Part shown: piece by piece, positions 7,620 to 31,700 of the stretch
Position numbering within the stretch: the first letter of the stretch is position 1
Layout of the letters: every line of letters begins with the position of its first letter
Source of the DNA: an uncultured Planctomycetia bacterium
Lineage (GTDB): Bacteria; Omnitrophota; Gorgyraeia; 2-02-FULL-51-18
Direction: 5' to 3'
Assembly (NCBI GenBank): GCA_964606485.1
Contig: CAZSGP010000001.1
Coordinates: 481,085-545,084 of the forward strand
Length of the DNA stretch: 64,000 nucleotides
Notes under the pieces: generated by a model
Database searches by the model: none
Told to the model about the DNA's origin: nothing
Seen by the model: only the letters and a program-made list of their open reading frames with translations
Translations under genes and position numbers: made by a program

Positions 7620-7652
7620 AGGATAGACACTGATGCGAAAAAGGAAAAGATA

Positions 7653-8912: not shown

Positions 8913-8931
8913 TTGAGAGACACAGAAAGCG

Positions 8932-9390: not shown

Positions 9391-9426
9391 TATCTCATTC
9401 ACCCAGGAGCGGGGCATGTCGTTGAG

Positions 9427-10686: not shown

Positions 10687-10730
10687 TTAATTACCTCCCG
10701 CCAACTTGCTTTCACTCTGAATCCATTGCA

Positions 10731-11573: not shown

Positions 11574-11721
11574 CCAGACAACATTTTCATTTTATTATTC
11601 AAAACTGACAAATTAAACAGATTCCGTTAGAATGCTTTTTAGTGTTGCCTGAGACTTTTTCAAGAAAACATGGTGAACATATGGCGAAACTTACTGACAA
11701 GCAGATTGAGCAAGTGAAAAA

Positions 11722-12480
11722 ATGAAGAAATTGAGGTTTCGAGCCAGAGAGGTTAAGCCCAGTGTTAGAAGATATAAACGAGGCCTTATAAGGCAAATCG
11801 CGAGTTTTTATAATTTGTCTCGTAACCCAGAGTTTCTAAGAGATATTAAATCGGTAAGAAGAGATTTTGGGATGGAATTACCACGACGCGATGGCAAGCC
11901 ACCACCGTATGCGGGGCTTGGCGGATGGCGCGCTAAGAAAGCGCTGTTTAAAAAATTAAAAGAAGAGTGCGGTGATATGCCGATATTTAATATTTTGCGC
12001 GGCTCCTACGATGTTTATCATTTATATGGGCATATGCTTTACAGAGTTAAGCACTCATTCTGGGGAAGGCTACAACAACTAACCGATAAATGGCACATAC
12101 GAAAAGACGATGCCTTTGCTATCGTGTATGGTAATGATTATCCACCATACCCAGGGTATTTTAAAGGGCAGGAGCGCCTGACCTTATATCAGCTAATCTT
12201 AAGAGAAACAGAGGAAATGCAGCCTCCGTCCGAAAATTTTATAGAAAAGGTGCGTAAATTAAGAAAAAATCCTGAGCCCAAGAGGTTTTGGTGGATAGAT
12301 CGATTTCAAAATAAGTCCCTCTCCACTCTAATCAGGCCTTACCTGAATAAGAAGGTAAGCGCTAGAAAAATTTGCGATGAGCTTCTTGAGAACAGTTGTG
12401 TTGATAAAGATGGCAACCCTTATACATATGAAGCGGTAAGAAAAGCAACGTATAGGACGAATAAGAAAATGGGACAATAA
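11722..12480 (+). CDS. Basic hypothetical protein (252 aa), possibly element-associated
   Basis: Long ORF on the same strand. It is preceded by an AT-rich region and by a 14-codon upstream ORF whose TGA stop overlaps its ATG. A terminator follows. Confidence 0.3.
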   Translation: MKKLRFRAREVKPSVRRYKRGLIRQIASFYNLSRNPEFLRDIKSVRRDFGMELPRRDGKPPPYAGLGGWRAKKALFKKLKEECGDMPIFNILRGSYDVYHLYGHMLYRVKHSFWGRLQQLTDKWHIRKDDAFAIVYGNDYPPYPGYFKGQERLTLYQLILRETEEMQPPSENFIEKVRKLRKNPEPKRFWWIDRFQNKSLSTLIRPYLNKKVSARKICDELLENSCVDKDGNPYTYEAVRKATYRTNKKMGQ

Positions 12481-12537
12481 CGACACCAAAAAAAGTTCTT
12501 TAGCGGGCTTCCGTTTTGCCTGCCTTGCAGTAAAATT

Positions 12538-12568
12538 CCCAACACGATAGGTGTTGGGTTTTTTATTT
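12538..12568 (+). terminator. Rho-independent terminator
   Basis: Stem CCCAACAC / GTGTTGGG with loop GATAG, followed by TTTTTTATTT. Confidence 0.65.
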
Positions 12569-12693
12569 GTGGAGGAAACTGTGTCGAACAAGAGTTTAGA
12601 AATGATAGAAGGCCATGTGAATAATGATTCGCTGTTTGCCTTAGCTCGTTTTTCCAGCCTACAACATTTTTTATTCCTCAGCCCTTCTACAGC

Positions 12694-12972
12694 ATGGGAC
12701 GACCGATGTTAGAAATCACCGAGATCAATATAACCCCACTTAAACCGCAAGGCAGTCTTCTGGGATTTGCCAGTTTTGTATTAAATGGCCAATTCTATGT
12801 AGGCGGAGTCGCGATTCATGCAGATTTTCAAAACAGGGGCTGTCGCCTCGTGTATATCACAAAAAAACTGAAAAATGGGGAGGATGTGCCTTTATTTCAT
12901 CCTATTAATAAAGAAACGGCGGAGAAAGTCCAGCAGGCAATCTCCTCCGCGTGGGAGTTGTTGTTTAAATAA
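12694..12972 (+). CDS. spoVG: SpoVG-family nucleic-acid-binding protein (likely true start ATG 12706, MLEITE...)
   Basis: MLEITEINITPL..GSLLGFASFVLNGQFYVGGVAIH..HPIN..T...VQQAI follows the SpoVG pattern MEITDVRL..ASITLD.EFVVHDIRVI....HPIN...R..IQDAV. Confidence 0.65.
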   Translation: MGRPMLEITEINITPLKPQGSLLGFASFVLNGQFYVGGVAIHADFQNRGCRLVYITKKLKNGEDVPLFHPINKETAEKVQQAISSAWELLFK

Positions 12973-13025
12973 CTGTTATCTGGAGAAAAAGTGATGAAAA
13001 GAATTATCCGAAAGTTGGTTGACCG

Positions 13026-15191
13026 ATGAACAGCCCCGAAGAATTGAAGGACAAATCCTTATCAAGTCCGGAGTATGGGGACATAAATAAATATCTCAAT
13101 ATCTTGTTCCAAGAACTTGAGAGCGAGTACATCGAAGTTAGATTTCTCGGTGGGTCGCTAGCATTAAGCCCAAAGTTTTATTCAAGTACTAGTAAATTAA
13201 TCGAGGAATACCCAACATTAATTAATTTACCCTGTAATGTTTACGTTGGTGTTTGCCCGAGAAGAGAAAGAAAGGGCGATAAGAAGTCAGTAAGCCGCAT
13301 CCGTTGTCTATGGTTGGACCTTGACGCCAAAACATTCTCAGGAGGGAAAGGGGAGATCCTGAAGCGGCTGCAAGAGTTTATGGTAAAGACGACAATGATT
13401 ATTGATAGCGGCAACGGCTATCATGCCTATTGGGCCCTAAAGGAACCCGAAACAAACCAAGAATTAATCGAGGTGTATCTCCGAAGCCTCGCTAGCGTAC
13501 TGGGTGCAGATAAAAGTGTGTGCGAGGTCGCGCACATATTAAGACCTCCGAAATCGTTTAACCGTAAGGACCCTTCCAAGCCTCTTCTAGTTCAGGCGGT
13601 CAGTATTCACGAGTCGCTTAGTTACAATTTGTCCGATTTTGATATTTTTCTTCAAAAGGAAGAAAAAGCAAACACTCAATTCGTAAGCAAATCAAAGGAC
13701 TGGATGGTTGATGCTCTGAGCGGTCTGGCTGAGGGTAACCGAAACGCGACCTTTGCCAGTATCGTGGGAAGGCTGCTCCGAGACGGCCACTCCTCCGATG
13801 AAATATACGCACTGCTTTTACCACACGCAGAGAAATGTCGGTTTCCGGCGGGTGAATTGCGGGGTGAGATTGATGGGATATCAAAACGGTATTCGAAACC
13901 CACAATTAAGTTGCTCGCTCCGCCGTCTGACTCAAGAAACCAATGGCCAGACTCAATGAAGCCAGCTGCGTATTACGGCTTGGTTGGCGATCTCGTGAGA
14001 ATCATTGAGCCGCATAGCGAATCGGACCCTGTGGCGCTACTTTCCATGATGATAGTTGGCATCGGCAACATGATTGGGCGAGGACCGCATCTTTTAGTTG
14101 AGGCTACTCGGCATTATCTGAATCTATTTGTTGTTGTTGTGGGCGCTTCAAGCCGGGCCAGAAAAGGTACAGCTTGGGGCCATGTTGAGATGATTTGTAG
14201 CCGTCTCGATGCAAACTGGGCTAAAAATTGTATAAACAAAGGGCTAGCCTCTGGCGAAGGACTCATCTGGAGTGTTCGTGACCCAATCTACAAGCTCCGT
14301 AAAAAGAAATCAGGAGAGTATGAAGAAGTTATGGAAGATAAAGGTGTCGATGACAAGAGAGTCCTTGTAATTGAAGAAGAATTTTCTTCACCGCTCAAAC
14401 TTATGCAGCGAGAAGGCAATATTCTCTCGCCAACTTTGCGCTGCGCCTGGGATAAGGGTAGTTTTCAAAGCTTAACCAAAAACACACCTGTAAAAGCAAC
14501 GGACGCACACCCATCAGTTATTGGGCATGTCACAAAAGACGAGCTTCTTCGGTGCTTTGACAAAACAGAGGCTGCTAATGGATTTGGGAACCGCATTTTA
14601 TGGTTGTGTACTAAGCGTAGCAAAGAGCTGCCCGATGGAGGATGTGTTCCCGAAGAGGAACTGGCTCCGATTCTTTTAGATTTGGCAGAAGCGGTAAATT
14701 GGGCAAGAACAGTTCAGGCGCTTAAACGCGATGAAGAAGCCAGGAAACTGTGGCATGAGGTGTATTCAGAATTAACAAGGGACACACCCGGCCTGCTTGG
14801 TGCTGTTATTTCACGGGCTGAGGCACAGGTGTCCAGGCTTTCATGTTTTTATGCGCTTTTAGATAAGTCACCGGTCATTCGAGTTGTTCACTTGAGGGCA
14901 GCACTTGCGTTCTGGGACTATGCGGAGCAGTCAGCCCGTCACATTTTTGGGGATCGATTAGGTTACCCCGAAGCAGATGAGATTTTGCAAGCCCTGCGAA
15001 CCAACCCACAAGGACTGACTCGGACTCAAATCCAGCAGCTTTTTCAGCGCAACAAGACTGCTGAGCACATACAGAAGGCCCTAGAGTTCCTCCATCATAA
15101 TCAATTTGCAGAAAAAATAATCGAAGAGACGAGCGGGAGACCGGCTGAGCGGTGGGTTGTGAAGGGAGTAAGTACGAATGAAACGAAATAA
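13026..15191 (+). CDS. Replication protein with an N-terminal bifunctional primase-polymerase (prim-pol) domain, 721 aa
   Basis: Prim-pol motifs LWLDLDAK (DxD), SGNGYHAYW and HILRPPKSFNRK at nt ~13306-13580. The C-terminal two-thirds are unassigned. The GASSRARKGT segment is not a canonical Walker A. Confidence 0.65.
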   Translation: MNSPEELKDKSLSSPEYGDINKYLNILFQELESEYIEVRFLGGSLALSPKFYSSTSKLIEEYPTLINLPCNVYVGVCPRRERKGDKKSVSRIRCLWLDLDAKTFSGGKGEILKRLQEFMVKTTMIIDSGNGYHAYWALKEPETNQELIEVYLRSLASVLGADKSVCEVAHILRPPKSFNRKDPSKPLLVQAVSIHESLSYNLSDFDIFLQKEEKANTQFVSKSKDWMVDALSGLAEGNRNATFASIVGRLLRDGHSSDEIYALLLPHAEKCRFPAGELRGEIDGISKRYSKPTIKLLAPPSDSRNQWPDSMKPAAYYGLVGDLVRIIEPHSESDPVALLSMMIVGIGNMIGRGPHLLVEATRHYLNLFVVVVGASSRARKGTAWGHVEMICSRLDANWAKNCINKGLASGEGLIWSVRDPIYKLRKKKSGEYEEVMEDKGVDDKRVLVIEEEFSSPLKLMQREGNILSPTLRCAWDKGSFQSLTKNTPVKATDAHPSVIGHVTKDELLRCFDKTEAANGFGNRILWLCTKRSKELPDGGCVPEEELAPILLDLAEAVNWARTVQALKRDEEARKLWHEVYSELTRDTPGLLGAVISRAEAQVSRLSCFYALLDKSPVIRVVHLRAALAFWDYAEQSARHIFGDRLGYPEADEILQALRTNPQGLTRTQIQQLFQRNKTAEHIQKALEFLHHNQFAEKIIEETSGRPAERWVVKGVSTNETK

Positions 15192-15261
15192 CAACCCTCC
15201 CATACCTTACTTCGTCAATTTCGTTTATTTCGTACGCCTATACAACTAAGCGGGGTGTCTT

Positions 15262-16890
15262 GTGGCGTTGCGAAATAAGCGAAAGAAAAAGAAAGAAGCC
15301 AAAAGCCACATTCCGAGTGTGGAAGAGCTCAAGATTTCCTATGACAAGGAGCTTCGAGCTCACAACTACCTGAGAGCCTATCTTGATGACTTAAACATTC
15401 CAATTCGTGATCGTGAAAAGCGGATGCCGGAATTTGAGTTAATTCTTTCTCGATTGAATGACCTGATTGGAGGGATAGAAGAACGATGGCGTCCGATGAC
15501 GGGCGATGAGATTCTTAATGGGTTTTCCAAAACCAGTGAATTGGGTCCCGATGAATTAAAGAACAGCCCGGTTCTGACGTCAGTTCCTACACTACCCAAA
15601 GATTTTGAGTTGGGTGATGAATTCAGAGAGTGCTTTGCAAAAGTAGAACAGGGCAAATCTCTTCTTCTAGAAGGTAATGCAGGCACCGGCAAAACAACTT
15701 TTCTAACTTACTGGAGCCGAAATACCAAAAAAAACTATGTGATTGTGGCCCCTACGGGAATTGCGGCAATAAACTCCGGCGGACAGACAATACACTCCTT
15801 CTTTAAGTTCCCACCCGAGCTAGTTCAAAAAAAGGATGTTCGCGAGCTTCAGCGCATTGGGCAAGTGTTTAGGGTACTTGATGTGCTCGTTATTGATGAA
15901 GTTTCCATGCTGCGAGCGGATTTGCTGGACGCCATCGACTACTCCTTACGAATAAATAGAAAAGTGCATGATGTGCCCTTTGGTGGTGTTCAGATAATTC
16001 TTATTGGAGATTTATGCCAGCTTCCGCCGATTGTTGATAAGGAGCTGGCTGAGCATTTTGGCGAGCTCTATGACACGCCCTATTTTTTTAGCGCGAAAGT
16101 TTTCAGTGATGCTCAGTTTCATCAATTCATTCTAAAAAAGAATTACAGGCAGCGAGACGCGAAGTTCATGTCTTTGCTGAATAAGGTTAGAAACCGAAGC
16201 ATCACCGAAGATGATTTACGGTTACTGAACACTCGCGTTAATTCTGTTCTCGCCGAGACATGGGATAATGCGATTCGACTGACACCCACAAACGCTGCAG
16301 CAAATGCTATAAACCAAATTCGTCTGGCAGAATTACCAGGGAAAGAGTTTTTGTATGAAGCTGTCATCAAGGGTGATTTTGACAACGCATTGTATCCCAC
16401 CGAAACCCAGCTAAAACTGAAAGTTGGCGCTCAGGTTCTCATGGTTAAAAACGATAACCCCAGTCGACGTTGGGTTAACGGCAGCATCGGAGAAGTTATC
16501 GAACTAAATTCTGATGCTGTGAAGGTGCGAATCGGCCATGGCGTTCATGATGTAACGCCCGTAATCTGGGAAAAAATTAAGTACAGGCATGACGAGCAGA
16601 CTGACGGTATTGTCTCAGATGTTGTCGGTAGTTTTGAACAATATCCAATCAGGCTTGCTTGGGCCGTCACGATTCACAAAAGCCAAGGCTTAACATTTGA
16701 CCGTGTTGTGGTCGATTTTGGTGAAGGCACATTTGTGCACGGGCAATGCTACGTTGCATTGAGTCGATGCAGATCCATCGAAGGCCTTGTCTTAAAGCGT
16801 GCCGTTAATTTTAGTGACATTATTTATGATGAACGGATTCATCGAATTTCCAAACTTTTCACGCCGCATGAAGGAAATCCCACGCTATGA
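15262..16890 (+). CDS. Pif1/RecD-family SF1 DNA helicase (542 aa)
   Basis: Walker A GNAGTGKTTFL, motif II VLVIDEVSML, ILIGDLCQLPPI and the C-terminal motif YAVTIHKSQGLTFDRVVV. Confidence 0.8.
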   Translation: MALRNKRKKKKEAKSHIPSVEELKISYDKELRAHNYLRAYLDDLNIPIRDREKRMPEFELILSRLNDLIGGIEERWRPMTGDEILNGFSKTSELGPDELKNSPVLTSVPTLPKDFELGDEFRECFAKVEQGKSLLLEGNAGTGKTTFLTYWSRNTKKNYVIVAPTGIAAINSGGQTIHSFFKFPPELVQKKDVRELQRIGQVFRVLDVLVIDEVSMLRADLLDAIDYSLRINRKVHDVPFGGVQIILIGDLCQLPPIVDKELAEHFGELYDTPYFFSAKVFSDAQFHQFILKKNYRQRDAKFMSLLNKVRNRSITEDDLRLLNTRVNSVLAETWDNAIRLTPTNAAANAINQIRLAELPGKEFLYEAVIKGDFDNALYPTETQLKLKVGAQVLMVKNDNPSRRWVNGSIGEVIELNSDAVKVRIGHGVHDVTPVIWEKIKYRHDEQTDGIVSDVVGSFEQYPIRLAWAVTIHKSQGLTFDRVVVDFGEGTFVHGQCYVALSRCRSIEGLVLKRAVNFSDIIYDERIHRISKLFTPHEGNPTL

Positions 16891-17011: not shown

Positions 17012-18067
17012 ATGTTAGACGCCCTTGAGCGTGCAGGCATGTCCAACGCTCTGATACTCCCAAGCGATGTGCCTGCCCAAAAGGTGATTGCTTCAAAGGC
17101 GAGCTTCGTTTCAGCCGAGAAAGGAGTCAGTTTTGAACCGGTCCTTCAGAAGTTCTTGGATTACCTGAAGGTCCGGAATTATTCGGAGAAAACGCTTATT
17201 CGTTACCGGCGGGATTTAAGATTTTTGTTTCAATTTTTAAGCGCGGAGCGGGGAATTATATCAATTGATGACGTCACCAAAAAAGACCTTATGGAATATG
17301 AAAACGTCGTTTATTCATCAATGCGGTTAAAGGGTGATAGGCCCTTGAGTCAGGAAACAAAAGTTGGAAGGATTGTCGCCCTTAAAAGTTTTTATAATTT
17401 CCTGTCCAAGACTGAACTTATTCCCTTCAACCCCGCCTCGACAATTGATATTCCAGTGGTGCGAAACAATAAACTTCGCCAGTTTCTTACAGAAGATGAG
17501 GTTATTAAACTCCTTGAAGCGGCCAACGGTAAAGAGCCCCTCGAAGTCCGAAACCGCACCATTCTTGAACTTTTATATTCGACCGGCATAAGGGCCGATG
17601 AGCTCTTGAATGTAAGCTTAAAAGACATTGATCTTGAAAAACAGGAACTTCACATTCGTTTTGGAAAGGGCAGGATGGGCAAAAGAGAGCGTCTTGTTCC
17701 TATCGGTAAAATTGCAGCAGAGTGGCTTAAGCTTTACATCACCCATACAAGGCCAGTTTTCCAAAGGCGGGAGGACCAAGGGTATCTCTTTATATCCAAG
17801 AACGGCAGAAAACTTATGATTGCCGATCCCAACCGCATCGTTAAGCTTTACGCCAAGAAAGCCGCTATCGAGAAAAAAATTGTCTGCCATTCGCTGCGGC
17901 ATAGCTGCGCTACGCATATGCACCAGCATGGCTGCGACATTCGATTCATCCAAGAACTCCTTGGCCACGACTCAATCGAAACGACAACGATTTACACAAG
18001 GTTGGCCATCGACGATTTGAAGGAAATCCACGACAAAACCCATCCCAGGGAGCTTGACACTTCATGA
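17012..18067 (+). CDS. Tyrosine recombinase (XerC/D-like), first of a trio of adjacent recombinase genes (RitA-like)
   Basis: Core-binding domain plus catalytic residues LYSTGIR, GKGRMGKRER, HSLRHSCATH, LLGHDS and TTTIYTRL (Tyr). Confidence 0.8.
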   Translation: MLDALERAGMSNALILPSDVPAQKVIASKASFVSAEKGVSFEPVLQKFLDYLKVRNYSEKTLIRYRRDLRFLFQFLSAERGIISIDDVTKKDLMEYENVVYSSMRLKGDRPLSQETKVGRIVALKSFYNFLSKTELIPFNPASTIDIPVVRNNKLRQFLTEDEVIKLLEAANGKEPLEVRNRTILELLYSTGIRADELLNVSLKDIDLEKQELHIRFGKGRMGKRERLVPIGKIAAEWLKLYITHTRPVFQRREDQGYLFISKNGRKLMIADPNRIVKLYAKKAAIEKKIVCHSLRHSCATHMHQHGCDIRFIQELLGHDSIETTTIYTRLAIDDLKEIHDKTHPRELDTS

Positions 18068-18384
18068 AAGAGCTCTGGATGTATCTGGACCATCTATCGA
18101 AGGCGGGTCGGCAATTCATCACGGTCGATATATATAGGAGAGACCTGGGTCTTTTGGCCGACTTTTTATTTCGGGCGAAGAATAAAAACCTTGTCAGTGC
18201 CAGCACCGAAGACATCGAACCTTTTATGTATGAAACAAGTCAGCGTCTTTGCCAGTGGTGCTACTACAACCGGTATAACCGGATTTGGAACCTTTACAAC
18301 TTTTTTAAGACCGAAGGGCTCATTGGTGAAAATCCAATGGATGCAATCCCTCGGCCCAAAGCGCCAAGACGGGTTCGCCGATGA
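18064..18384 (+). pseudogene. Truncated tyrosine recombinase carrying only the N-terminal SAM-like core-binding domain (106 aa), middle member of the trio
   Basis: ATGA overlaps at both junctions (18064 and 18381). The sequence resembles the Xer N-terminal domain and no catalytic domain follows before the next full recombinase. Confidence 0.5.
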
Positions 18385-19277
18385 ACGAGATCACACGCTA
18401 TCTCGAATATCTCTACAATCGCGGCCACAAAGGTTCGAGTATCAAGACTATGCGTAAAGACCTTGAGGCGTTTGTGAGATTCCTGACGGGAGAGAGGAAG
18501 AAGGCCATCACGACTGCGATGCCGGAGGATATTGAAGCGTATCTTCTCAAAATAAAACCAACCGTGAGTGAGCACACGTATTACCACCGCTTCTCAACCG
18601 TAAGATGTTTCTACCGGTATCTCGCCATGGAAGAAATCATAGCTTTCAATCCTGCCGGGGCTATCCAGGGAATACGAACACCAAGCAGGCTTCCAAAATC
18701 TGTGCCCAGCGAATCGGAGGTTCAGGATTTCCTGAAAAAACCAAAACTTCACACAGTCTACGGAATCAGAGACCGTTCTATCTTTGAGCTTCTTTATTCC
18801 ACAGGACTCCGAAGTCAGGAGCTGCGTGATTTAAAACTCGAAGACCTTGATTTATCCCAGAGGGTTTTGACTGTGCGTGAAGGTAAAGGCGGGAAGGGGA
18901 GGCTTGTTCCATTTGGCAGAAAGGCAAAAGAGGCGGTCGAAGAATACATCAATAAATCGAGGACGATTTTAAATAAGAAATCAGGCACGTATTTATTTCT
19001 GACGGACCAGGGCAACCCCATGAGCGCCTACATTCTCCGGCACAATATGAACCGCTATCGAGATCCCGAGAACCGAACCGCAACCCCGCATTCATTTAGG
19101 CATGCCTGTGCGCTTCATATGCTGCGAGCCGGGGCCGGGATCCGACACCTTCAGCAGATGCTCGGCCACGAGCGGATCACGACAACTACTATTTACACCC
19201 GCCTCAACCCCGAAGACCTGAAGAAGGCCGTCAGAACGTATCATCCCCGCGAACTCCCGCCCAAAGACGAAAAATAG
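18381..19277 (+). CDS. Tyrosine recombinase (XerC/D-like), third of the trio (RitC-like)
   Basis: Catalytic residues LYSTGLRSQE, EGKGGKGR, HSFRHACALH, LGHER and TTTIYTRL. Confidence 0.8.
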   Translation: MNEITRYLEYLYNRGHKGSSIKTMRKDLEAFVRFLTGERKKAITTAMPEDIEAYLLKIKPTVSEHTYYHRFSTVRCFYRYLAMEEIIAFNPAGAIQGIRTPSRLPKSVPSESEVQDFLKKPKLHTVYGIRDRSIFELLYSTGLRSQELRDLKLEDLDLSQRVLTVREGKGGKGRLVPFGRKAKEAVEEYINKSRTILNKKSGTYLFLTDQGNPMSAYILRHNMNRYRDPENRTATPHSFRHACALHMLRAGAGIRHLQQMLGHERITTTTIYTRLNPEDLKKAVRTYHPRELPPKDEK

Positions 19278-19325
19278 TTCTTCGGCAATCAGTTACTCCG
19301 TAATCCCTCTGCGCAATACCATTTT

Positions 19326-22300
19326 GTGGTGATTACGTCGATTACCGAAACGAGTATCACGTACACGGACATGGGTATTGGCCGCGACAAGCAAAATGAA
19401 TCGGTGACGGTTTCAAAAGACGGCTTCTTAAAGGCATGGAGCGGAAACGTTTCGCTTGAATCCCAAAAAATTCAACTGCTTCCTAGCGCCCAAAACAAAA
19501 TTTTGTCTGCCGAAGACGCCAAAAAAGTCCGCGGTGCATTTTGGGGGAGTTTATTAGCGATGGTGGGAAGCGTGTTGAGTTGGATTCCCATTCCGGTGCT
19601 TCAGCAAATCGGTTGGGGTCTCACAGCCATCTCCATCGCTGTCTCTGCAATTGAGGGAGATTTTTTGACAGCCATCACTTCGGCTGTTAGCGTTTTTCTA
19701 CCCGGGCTCCGTCAATTATTTGGAAATGTGTTTGATGGCATAGGAGAATCTTTGGGATCCATTGGTCAAACATTCCAAAATGCGGGTGCCACTATTTACA
19801 ATTCTGTTACCGGGTTTATCAACAGCGCCATAAATTTCTTGCCAGGGGTAGGTCCGGTTCTTCAGTCGGCCGCCGCGTGGCAAGGCGCCTCATCCGTAGG
19901 AGCTTTGGTTGTGAACACGGCTTTAAAGATGGGTGTCGAATTTAGTGTGACCAGAGGCCTTGAGTCGTTGGGAGTTGGCTCGCAGATCGCTGGCTTCTTT
20001 GGGTCGTTAACCGCCAACGCTATTACGGCAGGACTTAAGCCGGAATCCTCAATCCAAGCGAATGGTCAAACGCAAGTTATGGTCTCGCATGCTCAGCAAG
20101 TTCAAAATGCTCTTCAACAAACGATTACAATTAGTCAAATCGGAAATCTTGGGATGCAACTAGGGCTTGCGCCGGAGCTCACGCAACTCGCTAGTCTTTC
20201 GGTAGGCGCCATCCAAGGAGCACAAATTTTAAATCCCGGCGGGCCGCTCGAGTATGCATTTTCTGAAATCGCTCCGAATCTCGTCACCACACTTGGGCAG
20301 TATGGACTTAGCGAACTTTCGAATGCAATTGGCCTACCGCCGATTGCTTCGCAGATGGTGGGGAATATAGGCGGTGCCGCTCTAAGCGCGGGACTGGGTT
20401 TTTCACACGCCGGAATGGATATAGTCAATGTGATTAATAATGAGACGATACGCAACGCGGTATCTCTTGGAATGACTTTTGGAATGGAGGCTCTCCAAAT
20501 TGCACCAAGTGCTAGCCAGTTTATTTTTGATCTCATGGATACGATTAAGGTTGGAGGGCAGAGCATCGGAAGCCGGTTGGTGGGAGCGGTAGTGGCGGGC
20601 TACCATTCGGCGGTTGATTTCTTGGCACAGCCCTTTAGATATCTTCCATTTGCCGCGCAAGAATTAAAAAATGGAATTATCTTTAGTTTAAATAGCTTTC
20701 AAAATTTTCTGGAGTCCATTCCAACGATATTTACTCCTCAAACACGTGAAGCAATCTATCAGAACGAAACATCTCTAAGTAGTGCTCAAATCGAACGCGA
20801 TGGGGACGTTTATCGTTTTCAATCTGGAAGCTCTATCGTGGAGTACGATGTTGTTCGAGATGTGCTAACCGAAACTACTCTGTCGCAACAATTGGAAATC
20901 AAAGGTTTTGGGTGGAATTCCCAAGGCGAACCCTACTACCAAAATTTAAGCTATCGCTCCGTGCTCGAAAACGGGCTTGTTTTGGAGGAAAATTTTGATG
21001 GCCAAGCATTAACGGATTGGTCGTATTTGATGGAGGGAAGAACGCTTGTAAAAGTGAACGTGGGCCACGAGGGACCTTTTTACGATATAGATGATTTCGT
21101 AGAATCCGGTTCGATTGAGATGGCGGCGCCAATCACATTTCAGACGACAGAGGCGAGCCCTACCCATGAAATTGAATCTTATGATGCGCCTTTCAGATTT
21201 GTTCTTAGTGTTAGCAATGGGAGCATTACCTCAACCACAGCAGAGATCATCAGAGAGCACGTTAACGATTCGCGTCTAGACGAAGATCTTTATGTTCTTG
21301 TAAACGGAATTGCTAATGAAAATATCCGCTTGGAAGGCTCGCCTCAATATCTTCAAAATCTTGAAACTGATTTGGTGAGTCGCAGTCAAGGTCAGATCCA
21401 GCATCAGGATATTATAAAGGCCTCTACATTTTTTAACTTTGCGACCTATCAATTTTTAAGCGGGCTAGGCAATTACACAACACTTGGAGCCGGTAGCGTT
21501 TATCGGGCAGTGCTCGAGCTCATCACCGGTGAAATTCAGAATAGTCTTTCACTTATGACAAAAGATATTGTTCTGTGGCTTGCCGAAGTTTCTAACCCAG
21601 CTCGACAATCGCTGTTGGTAGGGGATATTCGCCGGGCTGTTGAGGGTTTCTTTTCCGTCAATCCGGCCACTCGCCAAAGAGATATCATTGGCGTTGGTTA
21701 TTCCGGAGGTTTTGTGCCGCTTACCGAGGCGGTAGCCCGAGTTCCTTATAGCGCAAATCCTTTAGCCGGGTATAATACAAAAAGTCTTGTAGCTATCGGC
21801 GCAGCCTTGGTGCGACCCGATCAGATATTTAATGATATATTACTCAAGTTGCTTCAAGCCGCTGACTACTTGCAAAATCCGGGCCAGGTGGCCCTTGGAG
21901 TGTTGGAGACGACATTGAACGATCTTGATCAAGTGCTTTTGACAACTCCGGGAGTGGGAGTCGGAATTACTCAGGCAGTCATCCGGAGAGTTATTGCTTT
22001 TGTCGCGCAAGGCTCTCCTGAGCAAGCCTACCAAGAATACCAGCAAAGATTAAATGCCATCTCTGGAGCGCTCTCGAATTTATTTCCTAGCGCGTTTCAA
22101 GGGTTTGCTCTGGACGACTTAACTGGTTCTAGCACCCAAACCATCGTCAATTTATATGGCACAAGGGATATTTTAGCTAACTTTGCTGTCAATGGACATG
22201 CGATTGGAGGGTATAGAGACGATATCGCCGGGTTCACTCAAACCAATCGTGATCATCAACTTGTAAATATCGAGATTGTTGGGGCCACTCACTTTGACTA

Positions 22301-22535
22301 CATGCGGAGAGAAACAACATTTACTTCGTCCATCGTTAATTTTTTTAATCCCTCGGTAGCGGAATGGAACCGGACGGTTAGTGCGTTTGTGGCGGATGTT
22401 GTTGCTAATAGCCGTGATACCGCTTCGATTACCAGGTTCTTGAGGAATCCATCTCCGGATTTAGTGGGAGTTCAGGTTGTCGAAGAATTAGATAGGTGGG
22501 TAGTTTACTTGCCAGGATACACTGACCATGAATAA
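19326..22535 (+). CDS. 5'-truncated paralog (1069 aa, GTG start) of the C-terminal ~900 aa of the giant protein at 28731..41801. It spans the distal half of the C39-like domain, the glycine-zipper membrane region and the lipase-like alpha/beta-hydrolase. It may be an orphan module or a pseudogene.
   Basis: VVITSITETSITYTDMGIGRDKQNESVTVSKDGFLKAWSGNVSLE aligns to YVIITNVTENSVTYIDPSIGKDKENESLTVTKEGFLKLWQGNVTLE. The paralogs are roughly 50% identical throughout, and the in-frame homology (RNPSAQYHF vs NPSS..VHY) extends back to nt 19281. The GYSGG...GTRD...GATHFDY triad is conserved. Confidence 0.6.
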   Translation: MVITSITETSITYTDMGIGRDKQNESVTVSKDGFLKAWSGNVSLESQKIQLLPSAQNKILSAEDAKKVRGAFWGSLLAMVGSVLSWIPIPVLQQIGWGLTAISIAVSAIEGDFLTAITSAVSVFLPGLRQLFGNVFDGIGESLGSIGQTFQNAGATIYNSVTGFINSAINFLPGVGPVLQSAAAWQGASSVGALVVNTALKMGVEFSVTRGLESLGVGSQIAGFFGSLTANAITAGLKPESSIQANGQTQVMVSHAQQVQNALQQTITISQIGNLGMQLGLAPELTQLASLSVGAIQGAQILNPGGPLEYAFSEIAPNLVTTLGQYGLSELSNAIGLPPIASQMVGNIGGAALSAGLGFSHAGMDIVNVINNETIRNAVSLGMTFGMEALQIAPSASQFIFDLMDTIKVGGQSIGSRLVGAVVAGYHSAVDFLAQPFRYLPFAAQELKNGIIFSLNSFQNFLESIPTIFTPQTREAIYQNETSLSSAQIERDGDVYRFQSGSSIVEYDVVRDVLTETTLSQQLEIKGFGWNSQGEPYYQNLSYRSVLENGLVLEENFDGQALTDWSYLMEGRTLVKVNVGHEGPFYDIDDFVESGSIEMAAPITFQTTEASPTHEIESYDAPFRFVLSVSNGSITSTTAEIIREHVNDSRLDEDLYVLVNGIANENIRLEGSPQYLQNLETDLVSRSQGQIQHQDIIKASTFFNFATYQFLSGLGNYTTLGAGSVYRAVLELITGEIQNSLSLMTKDIVLWLAEVSNPARQSLLVGDIRRAVEGFFSVNPATRQRDIIGVGYSGGFVPLTEAVARVPYSANPLAGYNTKSLVAIGAALVRPDQIFNDILLKLLQAADYLQNPGQVALGVLETTLNDLDQVLLTTPGVGVGITQAVIRRVIAFVAQGSPEQAYQEYQQRLNAISGALSNLFPSAFQGFALDDLTGSSTQTIVNLYGTRDILANFAVNGHAIGGYRDDIAGFTQTNRDHQLVNIEIVGATHFDYMRRETTFTSSIVNFFNPSVAEWNRTVSAFVADVVANSRDTASITRFLRNPSPDLVGVQVVEELDRWVVYLPGYTDHE

Positions 22536-23280
22536 TATTAGAAAAATAACTCTCATTTTTGCAATAATTTCGATTGTCTGTAGTGCGTGGTTAGTACCGC
22601 ATCCAGCATTCGCTAAATCAGAAAAATATGATTTACGTTTGCTTGCCGAAAAAAATTCTCTTGAAAAGCAAGGGAGAAATTACGAATATCAGTCCGAATT
22701 TGATAGAGCAGCTCAAAAATATCAAGAAGCGGTTGAGTTGGACAATAGAATCTACGGCTCAAAAAACGGAAGAGCTCTCGCTTTTTTAGCGGAGGTTTTT
22801 CAAAAGCAAAATAGGTATGAAGATGCTCTTGAGCTAGTATTAGGTTTGGTTGTTGCGCACCCAAAACAAGAGAACTATTTGGATTGGAAGAGTGAATTAG
22901 ACGCTTTGATCAAATACAAGAATACGGGTTCTCAAGAACCTGTATCTGAATACCTAAAAGGTTATTCAAAGAAATACGAATCTAAGCTACCCCCAAATAC
23001 CTACACCTTTGGGAGCATTTTCTATGTTAATCGCATTCTGATGCTCTACGACACCATCGGCGATTACGATGCAGGAATTACATTTATCGATGAAGTTTTG
23101 GCTTATTTCAGAACCGGCAAAGCAGGAGACCCTAATCCTGGCCGTGTGGATGCGGAATACATAAAAATCAGAGAAGCCTTCGAGCTAGACAAAAAAGAAG
23201 GCAAAAAAGGTTCCATGAAGGAAGGAAAGCCCGGTCGGGCTACGCTAGCCCTCATCCAATCCGATTATTTTCCCTGGTGA
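22528..23280 (+). CDS. Membrane-anchored/secreted helical-repeat (TPR/Sel1-like?) protein. It occupies the same position as 41807..42268.
   Basis: N-terminal hydrophobic segment ITLIFAIISIVCSAWLV; Tyr/Leu/Glu-rich helical composition. Both this gene and 41807..42268 lie immediately after the hydrolase-domain end of a giant-gene copy. Confidence 0.35.
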   Translation: MNNIRKITLIFAIISIVCSAWLVPHPAFAKSEKYDLRLLAEKNSLEKQGRNYEYQSEFDRAAQKYQEAVELDNRIYGSKNGRALAFLAEVFQKQNRYEDALELVLGLVVAHPKQENYLDWKSELDALIKYKNTGSQEPVSEYLKGYSKKYESKLPPNTYTFGSIFYVNRILMLYDTIGDYDAGITFIDEVLAYFRTGKAGDPNPGRVDAEYIKIREAFELDKKEGKKGSMKEGKPGRATLALIQSDYFPW

Positions 23281-28730: not shown

Positions 28731-31700
28731 ATGAAAACTAAATCTGTCTTTTTCAAATCTATCTGCTGGACGCTAATTCTTAGCTTCTCGTATTCGCAGT
28801 TTTGTTATGCCTTAACTCCGAGAGAGCTTTTAGATCAGGCCAAAGCTTCCTTTGGACTTATGGGAGATGATCATCATCAGGGAGGAGGATCGAACCCGGT
28901 AGATTTGCAACAAAGCCAAGTCCAAGCTCAAAGTGCCGTAGATCAGCAAAATAATCTACAAGACCTTCAAAATCTAAACTTTTCTCTAACCACTCAAAAC
29001 GGCGACACCTTAAATTACGTTAATAACACGCTTTCACAAATCACACGTCCGGACGGAACCACTTTAAATAATATTAGTCAGGACGCAATGACCGGCAATA
29101 TCACAGGTGCCAACTTAAGATTAAATGATGGAACAATTCAAATCCTCCAAAATGGAAATATTTTAGGAAGTCAAACCCCTGATGGCACCCAAGTTTTCTA
29201 TGACCTTCAGACTGGCAAAGTTCAAAGAACCGTTTCTTCAAGTGGTGAGGAAACAACGTACACATACATCAACAGCGAAACGATTCTTGAAAGTGCCCAC
29301 TTTCAAACTGCCTACGACGCCAATGATAAAATTAAGCATATTTTAGATAAACAAACGCACAAAGAGAGTTTTTTTAATAACGGCATTCTCCAAAGAATTG
29401 AAGAAGTTGATCATTCCCAGTATTTATTCGGTCATGAGACTACGGGGACAGATATCCGCGTAAGCCTGGAAGCTTTTATCGACTCCATCGGCAACCGATT
29501 TGATTTTACTGGAGACGACGTCTCCCGAGTGACGCTCGTGGATGGGACCGAGCTTCAAAATACGGTTTGGAACTCTCAAGACCAAACGCTCCGAGACTTT
29601 TCATTTACAGAAGCCTCAGGAAATACCCGCACCGTTTTAAATAATCAAACCTCACAGATCGATCTTTCGAATAATGGTGGAAGCATCACGGACATTACTT
29701 GGAATCCCCAAACACATGCTCTAGAAAATTACCACTTTACAAATCCAGCGGGTGACGACTTCACGGTCGTAAATGGATTGGCTAGCCAAATCCACTTAGC
29801 CAGTAATCAGGGTTCTATCTCTAATAGCATTCTAGATCCCAGTACAGGCCTTCTTCGGGACTATGTGTTCACCGACCCAGCAGGGAACGTGTTTACCGCT
29901 CTAAATAACCAAGCCACTCAAATTGATCTTTATAATCATCAGGGCGAGATTTCAAATATCACTTGGAACCCCACCAACCATACTCTCGAAGACTACGTCT
30001 TCACCGATCCAAACGGGAATGAATTCACAGTCGCCCAAACCCAAGTCTCTCAAATTTTTCTTCCAAGTGGCCAAGGCCGACTGACGAACATCACCTGGAA
30101 TTCTTTAGATCAAACCTTAAAAAACTACACCTTTACCGATTTTGATGGAAATGTCTTTACAGTCGTTGATAATCAAACCACACGCATCGTTCTTTCTGGG
30201 AATAGGGGAGAGCTCGCCGGTATTGAGTGGGATGCCGTCACACATTCTCTAAAAAACTACACCCACACGGATTCCGCTGGAAATATCTTCACCGTTCAAA
30301 ATAATCAAACTATCCAAATTGATCTTGCAAACAGCGCAGGACGCATTACGAATATCGTTTGGAATCCCCAAACGCTTGCACTGGAAAGCTACCACTTTAC
30401 AAATTCCTCAGGCGACGAGTTTGCGGTTAATAACGGTCAAACCACCGAGATTCTTTTAGCGAACAACGATGGACGCCTTACCAATATTATATGGGACTCA
30501 CAAACGTACGCTCTTTCAAACTACATGCTGACCGATCTAGCGGGAAATCAATTTACCGTTGCCCAAAACCAAACCACTCAAATAGCGCTTTCTAATAATG
30601 CCGGAGTGATCACAAATATTCTCTGGGATAACGCCACTCATCTGCTAAAGGATTATGTTTTCACAGACTCCACCGGAAACGTCTCTACCGTTCAAAACAA
30701 TCAAACCGTTCAAATCAATATTCCAACCCAGGGCAACTTAACCAACATTGTTTGGAGTTCAACAACTCAAAGTCTCGCAGATTTTATTTTTACAGATCTT
30801 TCTGGAAATGCATTTACAGTTCAAAATAATCAGACCACACATATAGCCCTTTCCAATTCAAGAGGCACACTCACTAATACAGGATGGGACAGTGCAACGG
30901 GCGTTCTAAAGGATTATTTATTTACAAATCCGTCCGGAGATATTTTTACAGTAATCAACGACCAGACCTCAGACGTTCTTTTGGCAAACAATGCCGGTCG
31001 CCTTACGAATATCATCTTCGACCCTCAATCCCATCTCACCAAAGACTATGTGCTCACTGATTCGGCAGGGAATATCTTTACCGTCGTCAATAACCAAGCC
31101 ACCGAAATCGATCTTGCCCATAACGCCGGACGCATTACCGGAATCATTTGGAATTCACAAAATACAATCGACCAAGCCTTGCTAACCGATTCCCAGAATA
31201 GACAGATCCAATATCAGGGTGGAGTTGCTACAAGAATTACTCTGCCAAGCGGCGAGGTTATCTCCAACATCACATGGAATTCTAACGGCACGGTGCATGA
31301 AGCAGCGCTTGCCGACTCGCAGAACAACCAATATTTCTTCCGAGACAACGTAATTATAAAAGTCCAAGACTCGAATGGTGTTTTATTTGAAAATATTCTT
31401 TGGGGCCAAGACCAAAAGATTAAAGACGCCTCTGTGACGTTTCCAGACGGCCGAACCACTCTCTATCAAGATAAGAAGCTTATCCGGTTAACCGATGCCC
31501 AGGGAGTCATCACAAACTTCACTTATACTCCCGATAGAATTCTTGCGAGTTCCAATGGAATAAACTCCGAATATTTATTAGACGGCACCCTCGTTAAAAC
31601 AACCGATGCTCAAGGCAATCAAACTTTATACTTCGCTCAAGGCCCCCAAAAAGGCCTAAAAGAAAAAGACGTGACAGTTGCAGGGGACACCTTTATCTAC

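What the first reader, a model, noticed from the sequence alone, without database searches (positions are those of the whole stretch)
19278..23280. Orphan copy of the giant gene's C-terminal module plus a cognate downstream helical-repeat gene (possible toxin/immunity cassette)
ORF 19326..22535 is about 50% identical at the protein level to the last ~900 aa of the 28731 gene. The match covers the distal C39-like segment, the glycine-zipper region and the lipase-like hydrolase with its conserved GYSGG/GTRD/GATHFDY triad. It is followed by a membrane-anchored TPR/Sel1-like gene (22528..23280), just as the full-length gene is followed by 41807..42268. Duplication of a [C-terminal effector + small periplasmic helical-repeat protein] unit is the hallmark of Rhs/CdiA/Tle orphan toxin-immunity modules, and Tli immunity proteins are often Sel1/TPR-like. 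That supports an effector (lipase) plus immunity interpretation.
Basis: inference. Interest (0 to 1): 0.7.

Follow-up and report, generated by a model that had tools for sequence, protein, structure and literature searches.

The report
Giant-gene tail cut off by mobile island
The "orphan" is the intact tail of a giant Omnitrophota surface-protein gene, cut off exactly at a recombination site by a mobile defence island, and it carries a lipase-like enzyme domain that always travels with the small helical-repeat gene downstream.

Summary
The ORF 19326..22535 and the TPR gene 22528..23280 are real, but the similarity was overstated. The ORF is 43% identical to the giant gene over its first ~385 aa and about 17% after that (26% overall), not ~50% over 900 aa.

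The ORF is not a plain duplicate. It is a 5'-truncated gene tail. Homology to uninterrupted genes starts at the codon of the catalytic His of the C39 domain (19320). That is 43 nt after three overlapping XerC/D-like recombinase genes (17012..19277), which end a DISARM-carrying mobile island.

The same recombinase trio abuts the same codon in three other Omnitrophota contig sets, two of them prophages. So this is an attR-type junction of elements that integrate site-specifically into this gene family.

Its TPR partner follows this domain type in 13 further places (12 loci). The giant's own hydrolase subtype has its own partner in two loci. This linkage fits effector plus immunity, or lipase plus foldase; neither was tested.

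The missing 5' half is unresolved. It was either lost, or it is the giant gene 41.7 kb upstream, whose present tail would then have arrived with the island.

The parts
17012..18067 (+). Tyrosine recombinase A (351 aa), XerC/XerD-like; first gene of the trio
   Evidence: Pfam Phage_integrase E 2.6e-45. NCBIfam XerC/XerD models E 1e-74 to 1e-78, below their cut-offs. 63-68% identical to the first trio gene in L001 and L004.
18064..18384 (+). Small protein (106 aa) with only the N-terminal SAM-like domain of an integrase; overlaps both neighbouring genes
   Evidence: Weak match to XerD N-terminus (E 1e-6). A gene of 106-112 aa sits at the same place in L001, L004, L086 and L090. 41-45% identical to those of L001 and L004.
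18381..19277 (+). Tyrosine recombinase C (298 aa), XerC/XerD-like; last gene of the mobile island
   Evidence: Pfam Phage_integrase E 8.4e-42. All relatives of at least 63% identity for which sequence beyond the gene is held (P0008, P0009, P0011) lie directly upstream of a 5'-truncated giant-gene tail.
19278..19333 (+). Junction (attR-type). Element-side arm ...CTCTGCGCAATAC, then CAT TTT GTG GTG AT. The His codon at 19320 is where homology to uninterrupted genes begins.
   Evidence: Codon-register comparison with 7 uninterrupted genes and 2 other junctions; a 4th junction in L086. The core pattern occurs only here and at the His codon of the upstream giant gene G1, 41,658 bp to the left. The His aligns with the catalytic His of a solved C39 peptidase, 7n87.
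19326..22535 (+). 5'-truncated giant-gene tail (1069 codons, intact). It holds the last ~45 aa of the C39 domain; a Gly/Ala/Ser-rich conserved region with one strongly hydrophobic segment (aa ~70-400); a variable linker; and a C-terminal hydrolase.
   Evidence: Aligned over its whole length inside uninterrupted genes of L020 (38%) and L008 (30%). The public gene call starts at Met16 (P0001, 1054 aa). No sigma-70-like site upstream.
21276..22532 (+). C-terminal alpha/beta-hydrolase domain (aa 651-1069). Putative oxyanion motif NG (aa 660-661), nucleophile Ser793 in GYSGG (21696..21710), Asp948 (22167..22169), His989 (22290..22292).
22528..23280 (+). Exported TPR protein (250 aa), the conserved partner of this hydrolase type; overlaps the stop codon of the tail by 8 nt
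   Evidence: TPR_12, TPR_2 and TPR_19 above cut-off. N-terminal hydrophobic segment ending AFA|K. A homolog lies immediately after an orphan-type hydrolase in L008, L020, L046/47, L052, L053, L054 (twice), L055, L059, L070, L077, L078 and L079.
1..16890 (+). Body of the mobile island inside the window: DISARM class 1 (DrmMI C-terminus 22..1068, DrmA 1068..4967, DrmB 4964..6844, DrmC 6807..7619), trypsin-like protease, primase-like 13026..15191, SF1B helicase 15262..16890
   Evidence: PADLOC, NCBIfam, ORF list. The island continues leftwards beyond the window with DrmD, a Dcm methylase and another integrase.
28731..41801 (+). Full-length paralog G2 (4356 aa). Its uninterrupted His site is at 39120 and it carries its own hydrolase subtype (AYSGG 41295, GSND 41451, GIGHTDY 41562).
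41807..42268 (+). Anchored small TPR-like protein (153 aa), partner of the G2-type hydrolase
   Evidence: A homolog lies directly after a G2-type C-terminal domain in L029 and L049. Weak TPR match. hhalign to the TPR250 family 92.6%.

Best explanation
What it is. ORF 19326..22535 plus the TPR gene is the displaced 3' end of a giant Candidatus Omnitrophota gene. It sits on the right-hand (attR-type) side of a mobile element that integrated by site-specific recombination inside the coding sequence. The integration point is the codon of the catalytic His of the C39-like domain.

The element. It carries a DISARM system, a primase and a helicase. It ends with a conserved module of two XerC/D-like tyrosine recombinases and a small SAM-like-domain protein, directly against the junction. 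Related modules on two prophages and one short contig abut the same codon of diverged family members. That makes this codon a dedicated attachment site. A 29-nt stretch starting there is conserved even at synonymous positions in a subset of uninterrupted genes.

The tail. It encodes a conserved Gly/Ala/Ser-rich segment with one strongly hydrophobic stretch, followed by an exchangeable C-terminal alpha/beta-hydrolase. This hydrolase type is always followed by this exported TPR protein. I infer an effector plus cognate protector (or folding helper) unit of a polymorphic surface protein. Cut off from its 5' part, signal and promoter, the tail is probably silent unless recombination at the His site rejoins it to a trunk.

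Shown versus inferred. Shown: the junction, its recurrence, the fold and triad, and the gene-pair linkage. Inferred: the direction of the event, any activity, the role of the TPR protein, and whether the tail is expressed.

Open point. The 5' partner was either lost, or it is the trunk of gene G1, 41.66 kb upstream. In the second case G1's present tail came in with the element.
For: The junction. In-frame homology to uninterrupted genes (...IAHI[NS]GNHY|V[IV]IT...) stops just 5' of the His codon in the window, L001 and L004 and in L086.

The recombinases. The recombinase gene ends 43 nt upstream. The trios are 63-71% identical (recombinases) across the four elements. Element-side arms are alike (CTCTGYG.WWA.TAC). 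In L001 the arm forms a 9-bp inverted repeat with the gene-side arm, CTGTGATTA/TAATCACAG. In L086 both arms change together, TGTGATGA/TCATCACA.

Element content. In L001 and L004 phage tail genes lie upstream of the trio. In the window, DISARM, a primase and a helicase do.

Host origin of the tails. L008 and L020 carry uninterrupted genes with the same tail and the same TPR neighbour. L001's tail is flanked on the right by the same repeat and Y1-transposase element as the uninterrupted genes of L019 and L030.

The conserved site. Third-codon-position conservation is 0.91 in the 30 nt from the His codon, against about 0.6 on either side.

The hydrolase. Fold and triad are supported.

Gene-pair linkage.

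Organism: all genome hits are Omnitrophota MAGs.
Against: No matching attL with a broken 5' half was found. There is none in the 48 kb to the left in this genome. There is none among 69 metagenomic loci that hold the C39 N-terminal part; all of those read through the His codon.

No empty-site allele of any of the four tails was found.

The window's junction core (CATTTTG) differs at two positions from the CACTATG of the other junctions, and its element-side arm is the most divergent.

All four tails are intact ORFs of more than 885 codons. That is unexpected for dead remnants.

Integration and excision were not observed; they are inferred from comparative anatomy alone.
Confidence: 0.75

Rival explanations
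1. Tip replacement by the element. The 41,658-bp stretch between the His codon of upstream giant gene G1 (Logan record position 41473) and the window junction (19320) is one integrative element. It carries its own tail module at its left end: the C39 distal part, the membrane region, a P0004-type C-terminal domain, a 4-TM protein and a small TPR-like protein. On integration this module fused in frame to the host trunk. The original tail, the window ORF plus its TPR gene, was pushed 41.7 kb downstream. This is a special case of the best explanation. It would make the element a vehicle for swapping effector tips.
For: Only two core-like sites exist in 92 kb. They are in direct orientation, with the recombinase trio just inside the right one and no 5' remnant anywhere between.

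G1 reads through its site into a tail that is 71% (nt) identical over 2.8 kb to the tail next to the phage trio in L001. That C-terminal type is seen nowhere else in the roughly 85 giant-gene loci compared, and its two small genes are 48% and 57% identical.

This model explains why no broken attL was found in 69 loci, why all ORFs are intact, and why 29 nt after the His codon are identical in otherwise diverged genes.

Genes with that canonical site are followed by type III R-M systems (L029, L021, L023) or by an IS3 element plus a primase (L031).

It matches the displacement model proposed for CDI orphans (PMC4927057).
Against: The genes right after G1's module (an 81-aa protein, an HTH_17 protein, a HisKA_7TM kinase and a response regulator) are recurrent neighbours of uninterrupted giant genes elsewhere. 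They therefore look like host genes, not cargo.

L001's tail lies in host-type context, so it is a host tail there. G1 may then simply be its unoccupied ortholog.

The stretch contains a second integrase, which suggests a composite of elements.

L029, L021 and L023 could not be followed downstream.
Confidence: 0.35
2. Classical orphan toxin-immunity cassette. A duplicated or displaced C-terminal module kept downstream of a full-length gene, available for homologous recombination with it as in Rhs/CdiA loci. The nearby recombinases would be incidental.
For: The family has a conserved trunk, variable tips and linked small exported proteins. CT-only ORFs without integrases follow full genes in L019 and L054. 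Orphans in CDI loci are often mixed with integrase and transposase genes (PMC4927057).
Against: The 5' boundary coincides to the codon with a recombinase-associated junction in four independent elements.

There is no nucleotide similarity to G1, G2 or G3; the longest exact match is 14 nt. Homologous exchange is therefore implausible.

The module is not a copy of the giant's: the hydrolase domains are 24% identical.

It lies upstream of G2, not downstream, and is separated from G1 by about 33 kb beyond the end of G1.
Confidence: 0.1
3. Domesticated cassette switch. The trio and the His-codon site are a host-controlled system, analogous to an integron or to excision elements, that joins alternative promoterless tails to giant-gene trunks. 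The tail would be a stored alternative, not a remnant.
For: The site is conserved at the DNA level inside coding sequence. The tails are intact and begin exactly at the site. Several giant genes with such sites lie on the same strand in one genome. The small third gene is conserved.
Against: The trio is found at the ends of prophages and of a defence island, and is absent from all 69 other giant-gene loci within 10 kb. All sites are in direct orientation, so a switch would delete tens of kb. A close relative of one phage lacks the trio altogether.
Confidence: 0.1
4. The TPR protein is a folding helper or membrane tether of the hydrolase, not an immunity protein. The model is the lipase-specific foldases encoded after secreted lipases (from general knowledge).
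For: The hydrolase-TPR linkage is strict, including in stand-alone pairs such as L054 6136..8135. The TPR protein is exported or anchored. The stop and start codons overlap, which suggests translational coupling. No known toxin family matches the hydrolase.
Against: Different C-terminal types each have a different partner, as expected for specific protectors. The polymorphic-tip architecture is typical of antagonistic effectors. Nothing tested here discriminates between the two roles.
Confidence: 0.3

Closest known systems
Orphan cdiA-CT/cdiI and rhs-CT/rhsI modules of polymorphic toxin loci (PMC4927057, PMC3967940)
   Same: A 5'-truncated tail retains part of the conserved region, carries a variable C-terminal domain, and is followed by a tightly linked small gene. 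It lies in the same orientation as full-length genes. The displacement model and the association with integrase genes have been described for CDI loci.
   Different: The boundary is a site-specific recombination site inside a C39-like domain, about 650 aa upstream of the variable domain. It is not a VENN or PxxxxDPxGL-type demarcation. There is no nucleotide homology for RecA-dependent exchange. The carrier is a 3,000-4,400-aa Omnitrophota protein with no identified T5, T6 or T7 secretion system. Toxicity and immunity are untested.
Prophages and excision elements that interrupt protein-coding genes, with the recombinase gene at the element edge (for example the skin element in sigK and the nifD element of Anabaena; from general knowledge)
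   Same: The element lies inside an ORF and the recombinase gene sits directly at the junction. The gene tail remains intact, and related elements reuse the same codon.
   Different: No matching 5' half was found at the other end. The target is a multi-copy, fast-evolving gene family rather than a single conserved gene. The recombinase module is a pair of XerC/D-like enzymes plus a small SAM-like-domain protein.
Recombinase-in-trio (RIT) elements and Tn554 (TnpA/TnpB/TnpC); from general knowledge, see also PMC8138268
   Same: Three adjacent, overlapping genes of the tyrosine-recombinase kind, with site-specific insertion in one orientation.
   Different: The middle gene is only 106 aa and has just the N-terminal domain. 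The gene order and sizes differ from both known systems. Here the module is part of prophages and islands, not a minimal element.
Bacterial lipases and esterases of the alpha/beta-hydrolase fold, and T6SS Tle phospholipase effectors with periplasmic Tli immunity proteins
   Same: Alpha/beta-hydrolase fold with GxSxG, Asp and His in canonical order. An exported helical-repeat partner gene follows immediately.
   Different: No sequence-family membership: no Pfam, NCBIfam or PDB sequence hit. There is a large helical insertion. The oxyanion motif is NG instead of HG. The domain is a C-terminal part of a giant protein. No Sel1 match was found in the partner.
C39-containing giant proteins of Omnitrophota (bioRxiv 10.1101/2023.11.21.568195; bioRxiv 10.64898/2026.06.07.730766)
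   Same: Same phylum and same architecture class (a PF03412 cluster, with transmembrane segments near the C-terminus). Mobile-DNA-rich flanks are noted there.
   Different: Term searches of the two papers found no mention of an integration site in the C39 His codon, of exchangeable C-terminal domains with linked partners, or of truncated tails.

Membership tests
Orphan CT/immunity module of a polymorphic toxin system | Homologs share a conserved trunk and differ in the C-terminal domain | tested here: met
   P0002-P0006, G1, G2 and the ORF share about 40-60% identity for about 400-650 aa after the His site. They then diverge into at least 5 unrelated tails.
Orphan CT/immunity module of a polymorphic toxin system | A specific small gene is linked to each CT type | tested here: met
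   Orphan-type CT with TPR250 in 13 further places in 12 loci. G2-type CT with p153 in 2 loci. P0004-type CT with a 4-TM protein and a TPR-like protein in 2 loci.
Orphan CT/immunity module of a polymorphic toxin system | The orphan keeps enough nucleotide homology to the full gene for recombination | tested here: not met
   No blastn hit at E<=1e-3 to G1, G2 or G3; longest exact match 14 nt.
Orphan CT/immunity module of a polymorphic toxin system | The CT is toxic and the partner neutralises it | not testable with these tools
   Requires expression experiments.
Orphan CT/immunity module of a polymorphic toxin system | An identified delivery route (T5SS, T6SS, T7SS or similar) | not tested
   No secretion genes were looked for. 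Only an N-terminal signal-like segment of G1/G2/G3 was seen.
attR junction of a site-specifically integrated mobile element | A recombinase gene lies at the junction | tested here: met
   Gene 18381..19277 ends 43 nt before the His codon.
attR junction of a site-specifically integrated mobile element | Homology to uninterrupted targets ends at one defined position, reused by related elements | tested here: met
   The same codon in the window, L001, L004 and L086, compared with 7 uninterrupted genes.
attR junction of a site-specifically integrated mobile element | A matching attL with the other half of the target and a repeated core | tested here: inconclusive
   The only other core-like site is the His codon of the intact gene G1, 41,658 bp upstream. 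There is no broken 5' half there or in 69 metagenomic loci.
attR junction of a site-specifically integrated mobile element | An empty-site allele exists in a relative | tested here: inconclusive
   Only distant uninterrupted homologs were found: L020 at 38% and L008 at 30%.
Alpha/beta-hydrolase (lipase/esterase-like) | Alpha/beta-hydrolase fold | tested here: met
Alpha/beta-hydrolase (lipase/esterase-like) | Nucleophile elbow GxSxG, then Asp, then His, all conserved | tested here: met
   Ser793, Asp948 and His989 are invariant in 39 sequences. In the model each follows a beta strand.
Alpha/beta-hydrolase (lipase/esterase-like) | Lipid substrate (lipase or phospholipase) | not testable with these tools
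   The structural neighbours include lipases, esterases, thioesterases and dienelactone hydrolases, so the substrate cannot be assigned.
T6SS Tle1-5 phospholipase families | Sequence membership in a known family model | tested here: not met
   No lipase or hydrolase family of Pfam matched even at E<=10, and no NCBIfam family at E<=0.01.
Sel1/TPR-type periplasmic immunity protein | TPR or Sel1 repeats and an export signal | tested here: met
   TPR_12, TPR_2 and TPR_19 are above cut-off; Sel1 is not matched. The N-terminal hydrophobic segment ends AFA|K; cleavage is inferred.
Recombinase-in-trio (RIT) element | Three full-length tyrosine recombinases | tested here: not met
   The middle gene is 106 aa with only a SAM-like N-terminal domain. 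This size is conserved in 4 other loci.
Shufflon / invertible C-terminal cassettes | Sites in inverted orientation flanking alternative tails | tested here: not met
   G1, the tail, G2 and G3 are all on the + strand, and the two core-like sites are direct repeats.

The most novel reading that the evidence does not exclude
Mobile elements of Omnitrophota, both prophages and defence islands, use a dedicated module of two XerC/D-like recombinases plus a small protein to integrate at the catalytic-His codon of giant polymorphic surface-protein genes. They bring a new in-frame tail (membrane segment, effector domain and cognate partner genes) that replaces the resident one, and the old tail is stored downstream as an intact orphan. 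Effector tips would then be swapped by site-specific rather than homologous recombination, and infection by a phage or island would re-arm the host's giant protein.
Probability: 0.3. Interest if true: 0.8.

Novelty: new variant of a known kind. Interest (0 to 1): 0.6.

Why it matters
Giant genes of Omnitrophota are among the largest known bacterial genes, and their function is open. This locus shows three things about one architecture class.

First, the class behaves like a polymorphic effector, with exchangeable C-terminal enzymes and linked partner genes.

Second, it contains a conserved DNA site in the C39 His codon that mobile elements use as an attachment point.

Third, a so-far undescribed C-terminal alpha/beta-hydrolase family (194 representatives) is paired with a TPR protein.

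This gives concrete experiments for an uncultured phylum: assay the hydrolase with and without the TPR protein, and test the recombinases on a 30-bp site.

If the element also delivers a replacement tail, this would be a clear case of the displacement model for orphan toxin modules carried out by site-specific recombination. It would also link defence islands and prophages to the diversification of antagonistic or predatory surface proteins.

Tried and rejected
- The built-in BLASTP comparison hid the main alignment behind composition adjustment. I re-ran it.
- Looking up the ORF's own protein gave no contig.
- Base composition and GC3 across G1, the tail and G2 showed no discontinuity.
- Comparing regions before and after the His site against 76 loci, to find the tail's original trunk, was uninformative because mosaicism is general.
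- The metagenome scan for attL junctions found none. The short 'gaps' in some loci are in-frame LamG insertions, not elements.
- A circularity test of the L001 phage contig was not completed. The DNA-pattern scan returned mostly overlapping sequence. The contig runs from the portal gene, or beyond it, through to the tail and lacks early genes.
- A related phage (L095, 97% tape-measure identity) lacks the trio and has an RNR gene instead, so it did not reveal an attP.
- The first AF2 run, with 7 sequences, failed (pLDDT 45). I repeated it with 30 sequences.
- The PDB sequence search of the hydrolase profile found nothing relevant.
- Walking downstream of L029, L021 and L023 failed because my ORF boundaries were not the called proteins.
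- I rejected a RIT element, a shufflon, and a stand-alone expressed gene. For the last there is no promoter-like site upstream and no signal peptide, though this is weak evidence.

Full report
**1. The observation.**
ORF 19326..22535 (+, 1069 codons, GTG) and ORF 22528..23280 (+, 250 aa) are present. The first is homologous to the end of the 4356-aa gene 28731..41801, here called G2. Residues 1-385 align with G2 residues 3466-3843 at 43% identity (E 8e-83).

The stated '~50% over ~900 aa' does not hold. A global alignment gives 26% identity overall: 43% in the first 400 residues and about 17% after that. The two hydrolase domains share 24%.

The 250-aa and 153-aa downstream proteins have no BLASTP similarity. 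Profiles of their families match over 86 columns of TPR-type repeats (hhalign 92.6%, E 4.5e-7). The motifs GYSGG, GTRD and GATHFDY are at residues 791, 945 and 986.

**2.
Pfam places a Peptidase_C39 domain in G2 (E 6.7e-8), and the ORF begins in the middle of that domain. Three overlapping genes lie immediately upstream:
- 17012..18067, a XerC/D-like tyrosine recombinase of 351 aa;
- 18064..18384, a 106-aa protein with only the SAM-like N-terminal domain;
- 18381..19277, a second XerC/D-like recombinase of 298 aa.

Further upstream are an SF1B helicase, a primase-like protein and a class 1 DISARM system: DrmMI, DrmA, DrmB and DrmC by PADLOC, with DrmD, a Dcm methylase and a further integrase beyond the window's left end. 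The ORF therefore abuts the right end of a mobile defence island.

**3. The junction is a recombination site and it recurs.**
In frame, homology to uninterrupted genes (...IAHI[NS]GNHY|V[IV]IT...) extends upstream of the GTG as far as the His codon at 19320, 43 nt after the recombinase stop codon. This His aligns with the catalytic His of a solved C39 peptidase.

The protein database holds only five relatives of the ORF. Three of them begin at the same place (P0004, P0005, P0006). Each lies directly after a homologous trio or the visible part of one:
- L001-L003 and L004-L005, where phage tail genes precede the trio;
- L086.

The recombinases are 63-71% identical. More distant integrases (44-47% identical) occur as pairs without the small gene and sit next to other targets.

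The element-side arms resemble one another. In L001 the arm forms a perfect 9-bp inverted repeat with the gene-side arm around CACTATG. In L086 both arms carry the same change. This is the anatomy of a tyrosine-recombinase core site.

All genome hits of the family are Candidatus Omnitrophota MAGs.

**4. The tails are host gene ends.**
L008 and L020 hold uninterrupted genes that align with the whole ORF (30% and 38%) and are followed by a homolog of the 250-aa TPR gene.

The right flank of L001's tail is an 80-nt tandem repeat plus a Y1 transposase gene. It is 97-100% identical to the flanks of the uninterrupted genes of L019 and L030.

The ORF is thus the attR-side 3' part of an interrupted paralog. 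It is not a copy of G2's module.

**5. A site conserved at the DNA level.**
The 29-mer CACTATGTTGTAATCACAGGGATAACTCA occurs exactly in the L001 junction and in the uninterrupted genes of L007, L029 and G1. It occurs with at most 2 mismatches in five more genes whose proteins are only 33-57% identical to G1's tail. Third-codon-position conservation is 0.91 in the 30 nt from the His codon, against about 0.6 on either side.

**6. Where is the 5' half?**
I walked the same contig leftwards (Logan SRR12487046_9405). This shows a 2924-aa giant gene, G1, on the same strand. Its HYVVIT motif lies 41,658 bp upstream of the window junction. These are the only two core-like sites in 92 kb, and no 5' remnant lies between them.

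G1 reads through its site into a tail that is 71% (nt) identical over 2.8 kb to L001's tail, with homologous 4-TM and TPR-like genes behind it. Among 69 metagenomic loci that contain the C39 N-terminal part, none is broken at the His codon.

Two histories fit these facts.
- (a) Simple insertion into a paralog whose 5' half was later lost, with G1 as an unoccupied neighbour.
- (b) The whole 41.7-kb stretch is the element, G1's present tail came with it, and the window ORF is the displaced original tail.

For (a): the 81-aa protein, the HTH_17 protein and the HisKA_7TM kinase plus response regulator that follow G1's module are recurrent neighbours of giant genes elsewhere. L001's tail is in host context. 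The stretch also holds a second integrase.

For (b): it needs no extra deletion, it explains the missing attL junctions and the intact ORFs, and it explains the 29-mer. Genes with the canonical site are followed by type III R-M genes or by an IS3 element plus a primase.

I could not decide between them. Composition was uninformative and the last walk failed.

**7. The C-terminal domain.**
No Pfam, NCBIfam or PDB sequence match exists. A profile search of 1.84 billion representatives finds 194 members. They are always at the extreme C-terminus of 2,000-7,079-aa proteins or occur as short ORFs.

In 39 members Ser793 (in G[YF]SGG), Asp948 and His989 are invariant, and an NG motif precedes them.

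The fold and catalytic competence are therefore supported. The substrate cannot be assigned.

**8. The partner gene.**
The orphan-type hydrolase is followed directly by a TPR250 homolog in L008, L020, L046/47, L052, L053, L054 (twice), L055, L059, L070, L077, L078 and L079. The G2-type hydrolase is followed by a p153 homolog in L029 and L049.

L054 holds a stand-alone hydrolase plus TPR pair downstream of a full gene plus TPR. L019 holds a CT-only ORF downstream of its giant gene.

All these partners have N-terminal hydrophobic segments. The linkage fits effector plus immunity. It also fits lipase plus foldase.

**9. Comparison with known systems.**
The closest described situation is the orphan CT/immunity module of CDI and Rhs loci, including the proposal that incoming modules displace resident ones and the association with integrases (PMC4927057, PMC3967940).

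This locus differs in three ways:
- The boundary is a site-specific recombination site in a C39-like domain.
- The carrier elements are prophages and a defence island with a module of two recombinases and a small protein.
- There is no nucleotide homology with the other giants.

C39-type giant proteins and MGE-rich flanks are described for Omnitrophota. Term searches of those two papers found no mention of this site or of the modular tails.

RIT elements and shufflons fail defining features: the middle gene is short, and the sites are in direct orientation.

**10. Verdict.**
This is a real and informative feature. However, the 'orphan' is a recombination-generated truncated tail at the edge of a mobile island, not a duplicated cassette.

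Noticed in passing
window 22..7619 (and L013/L091 upstream): A complete class 1 DISARM system: DrmMI C-terminus, DrmA, DrmB and DrmC in the window; DrmD, the rest of DrmMI, a Dcm methylase and a 304-aa integrase just left of it. It lies inside the island that ends at the junction.
   Followed up: partly
window 56858..64000 (+): A third giant paralog (G3) starts at 56858 and runs off the end of the window. Its N-terminus is 41% identical to that of the 28731 gene.
   Followed up: partly
L001 13440..13663; L004 13289..14191; L019 13479..14465; L054 5476..6063; about 16 further loci: A Y1 (IS200/RAYT-like, PF01797) transposase gene sits just downstream of the giant-gene tail and its small partner gene in about 20 loci. 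In L019 and L054 it lies between the main gene and a CT-only orphan ORF. In L001, L019 and L030 it is preceded by the same 80-nt tandem repeat. None is present in the 92 kb of the window genome examined.
   Followed up: partly
L092 6046; L001 9893; L007 9077; L029 11009; also L017, L021, L023, L030, L031: The 29-nt sequence CACTATGTTGTAATCACAGGGATAACTCA, starting at the C39 His codon, is identical or nearly so in genes whose proteins are only 33-57% identical. It is conserved at synonymous positions.
   Followed up: partly
L092 12494..15089; L007 997..3432; L009, L021, L041, L044 and others: HisKA_7TM histidine kinase plus response-regulator pairs, and small HTH_17 proteins, are recurrent neighbours of giant genes. 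They may be their regulators.
   Followed up: no
L029, L030, L042, L045, L046/47; P0003: In some family members a LamG (Laminin_G_3) domain of about 230-270 aa is inserted in frame inside the C39 domain, just before the IAHINGNHY motif.
   Followed up: no
window 38832 (G2 residue 3368) and all homologs: The Pfam C39 match covers only profile positions 46-127. The invariant motif LHFGQSAF lies where the Cys-bearing N-terminal part would be expected, and no conserved Cys was seen. The domain may be a non-catalytic or Ser-based C39-like domain.
   Followed up: no
L007/L024 9233..9235: An in-frame stop codon lies 50 codons after the His site in an otherwise continuous giant gene of an Omnitrophica MAG.
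   Followed up: no
L029 14386..19620; L021 14256..19621; L023 15519..19678; L031 6094..8207: Giant genes that carry the canonical 29-mer are followed by type III restriction-modification genes (Mod and Res), or by an IS3 transposase and a CHC2 primase.
   Followed up: partly
L095 17636..19624: A phage with 97% tape-measure protein identity to the L001 phage lacks the recombinase trio. It has a ribonucleotide reductase small subunit at the corresponding place.
   Followed up: partly
window 19275..19326: The stop codon of the last recombinase gene and the truncated tail are in the same reading frame, separated by that single TAG. This is not so in L001 or L004 and is probably coincidence.
   Followed up: no
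window 9427..10686: A secreted trypsin-like protease inside the island gives partial PADLOC matches to the protease part of RT-Protease_XI and to LmuA.
   Followed up: no
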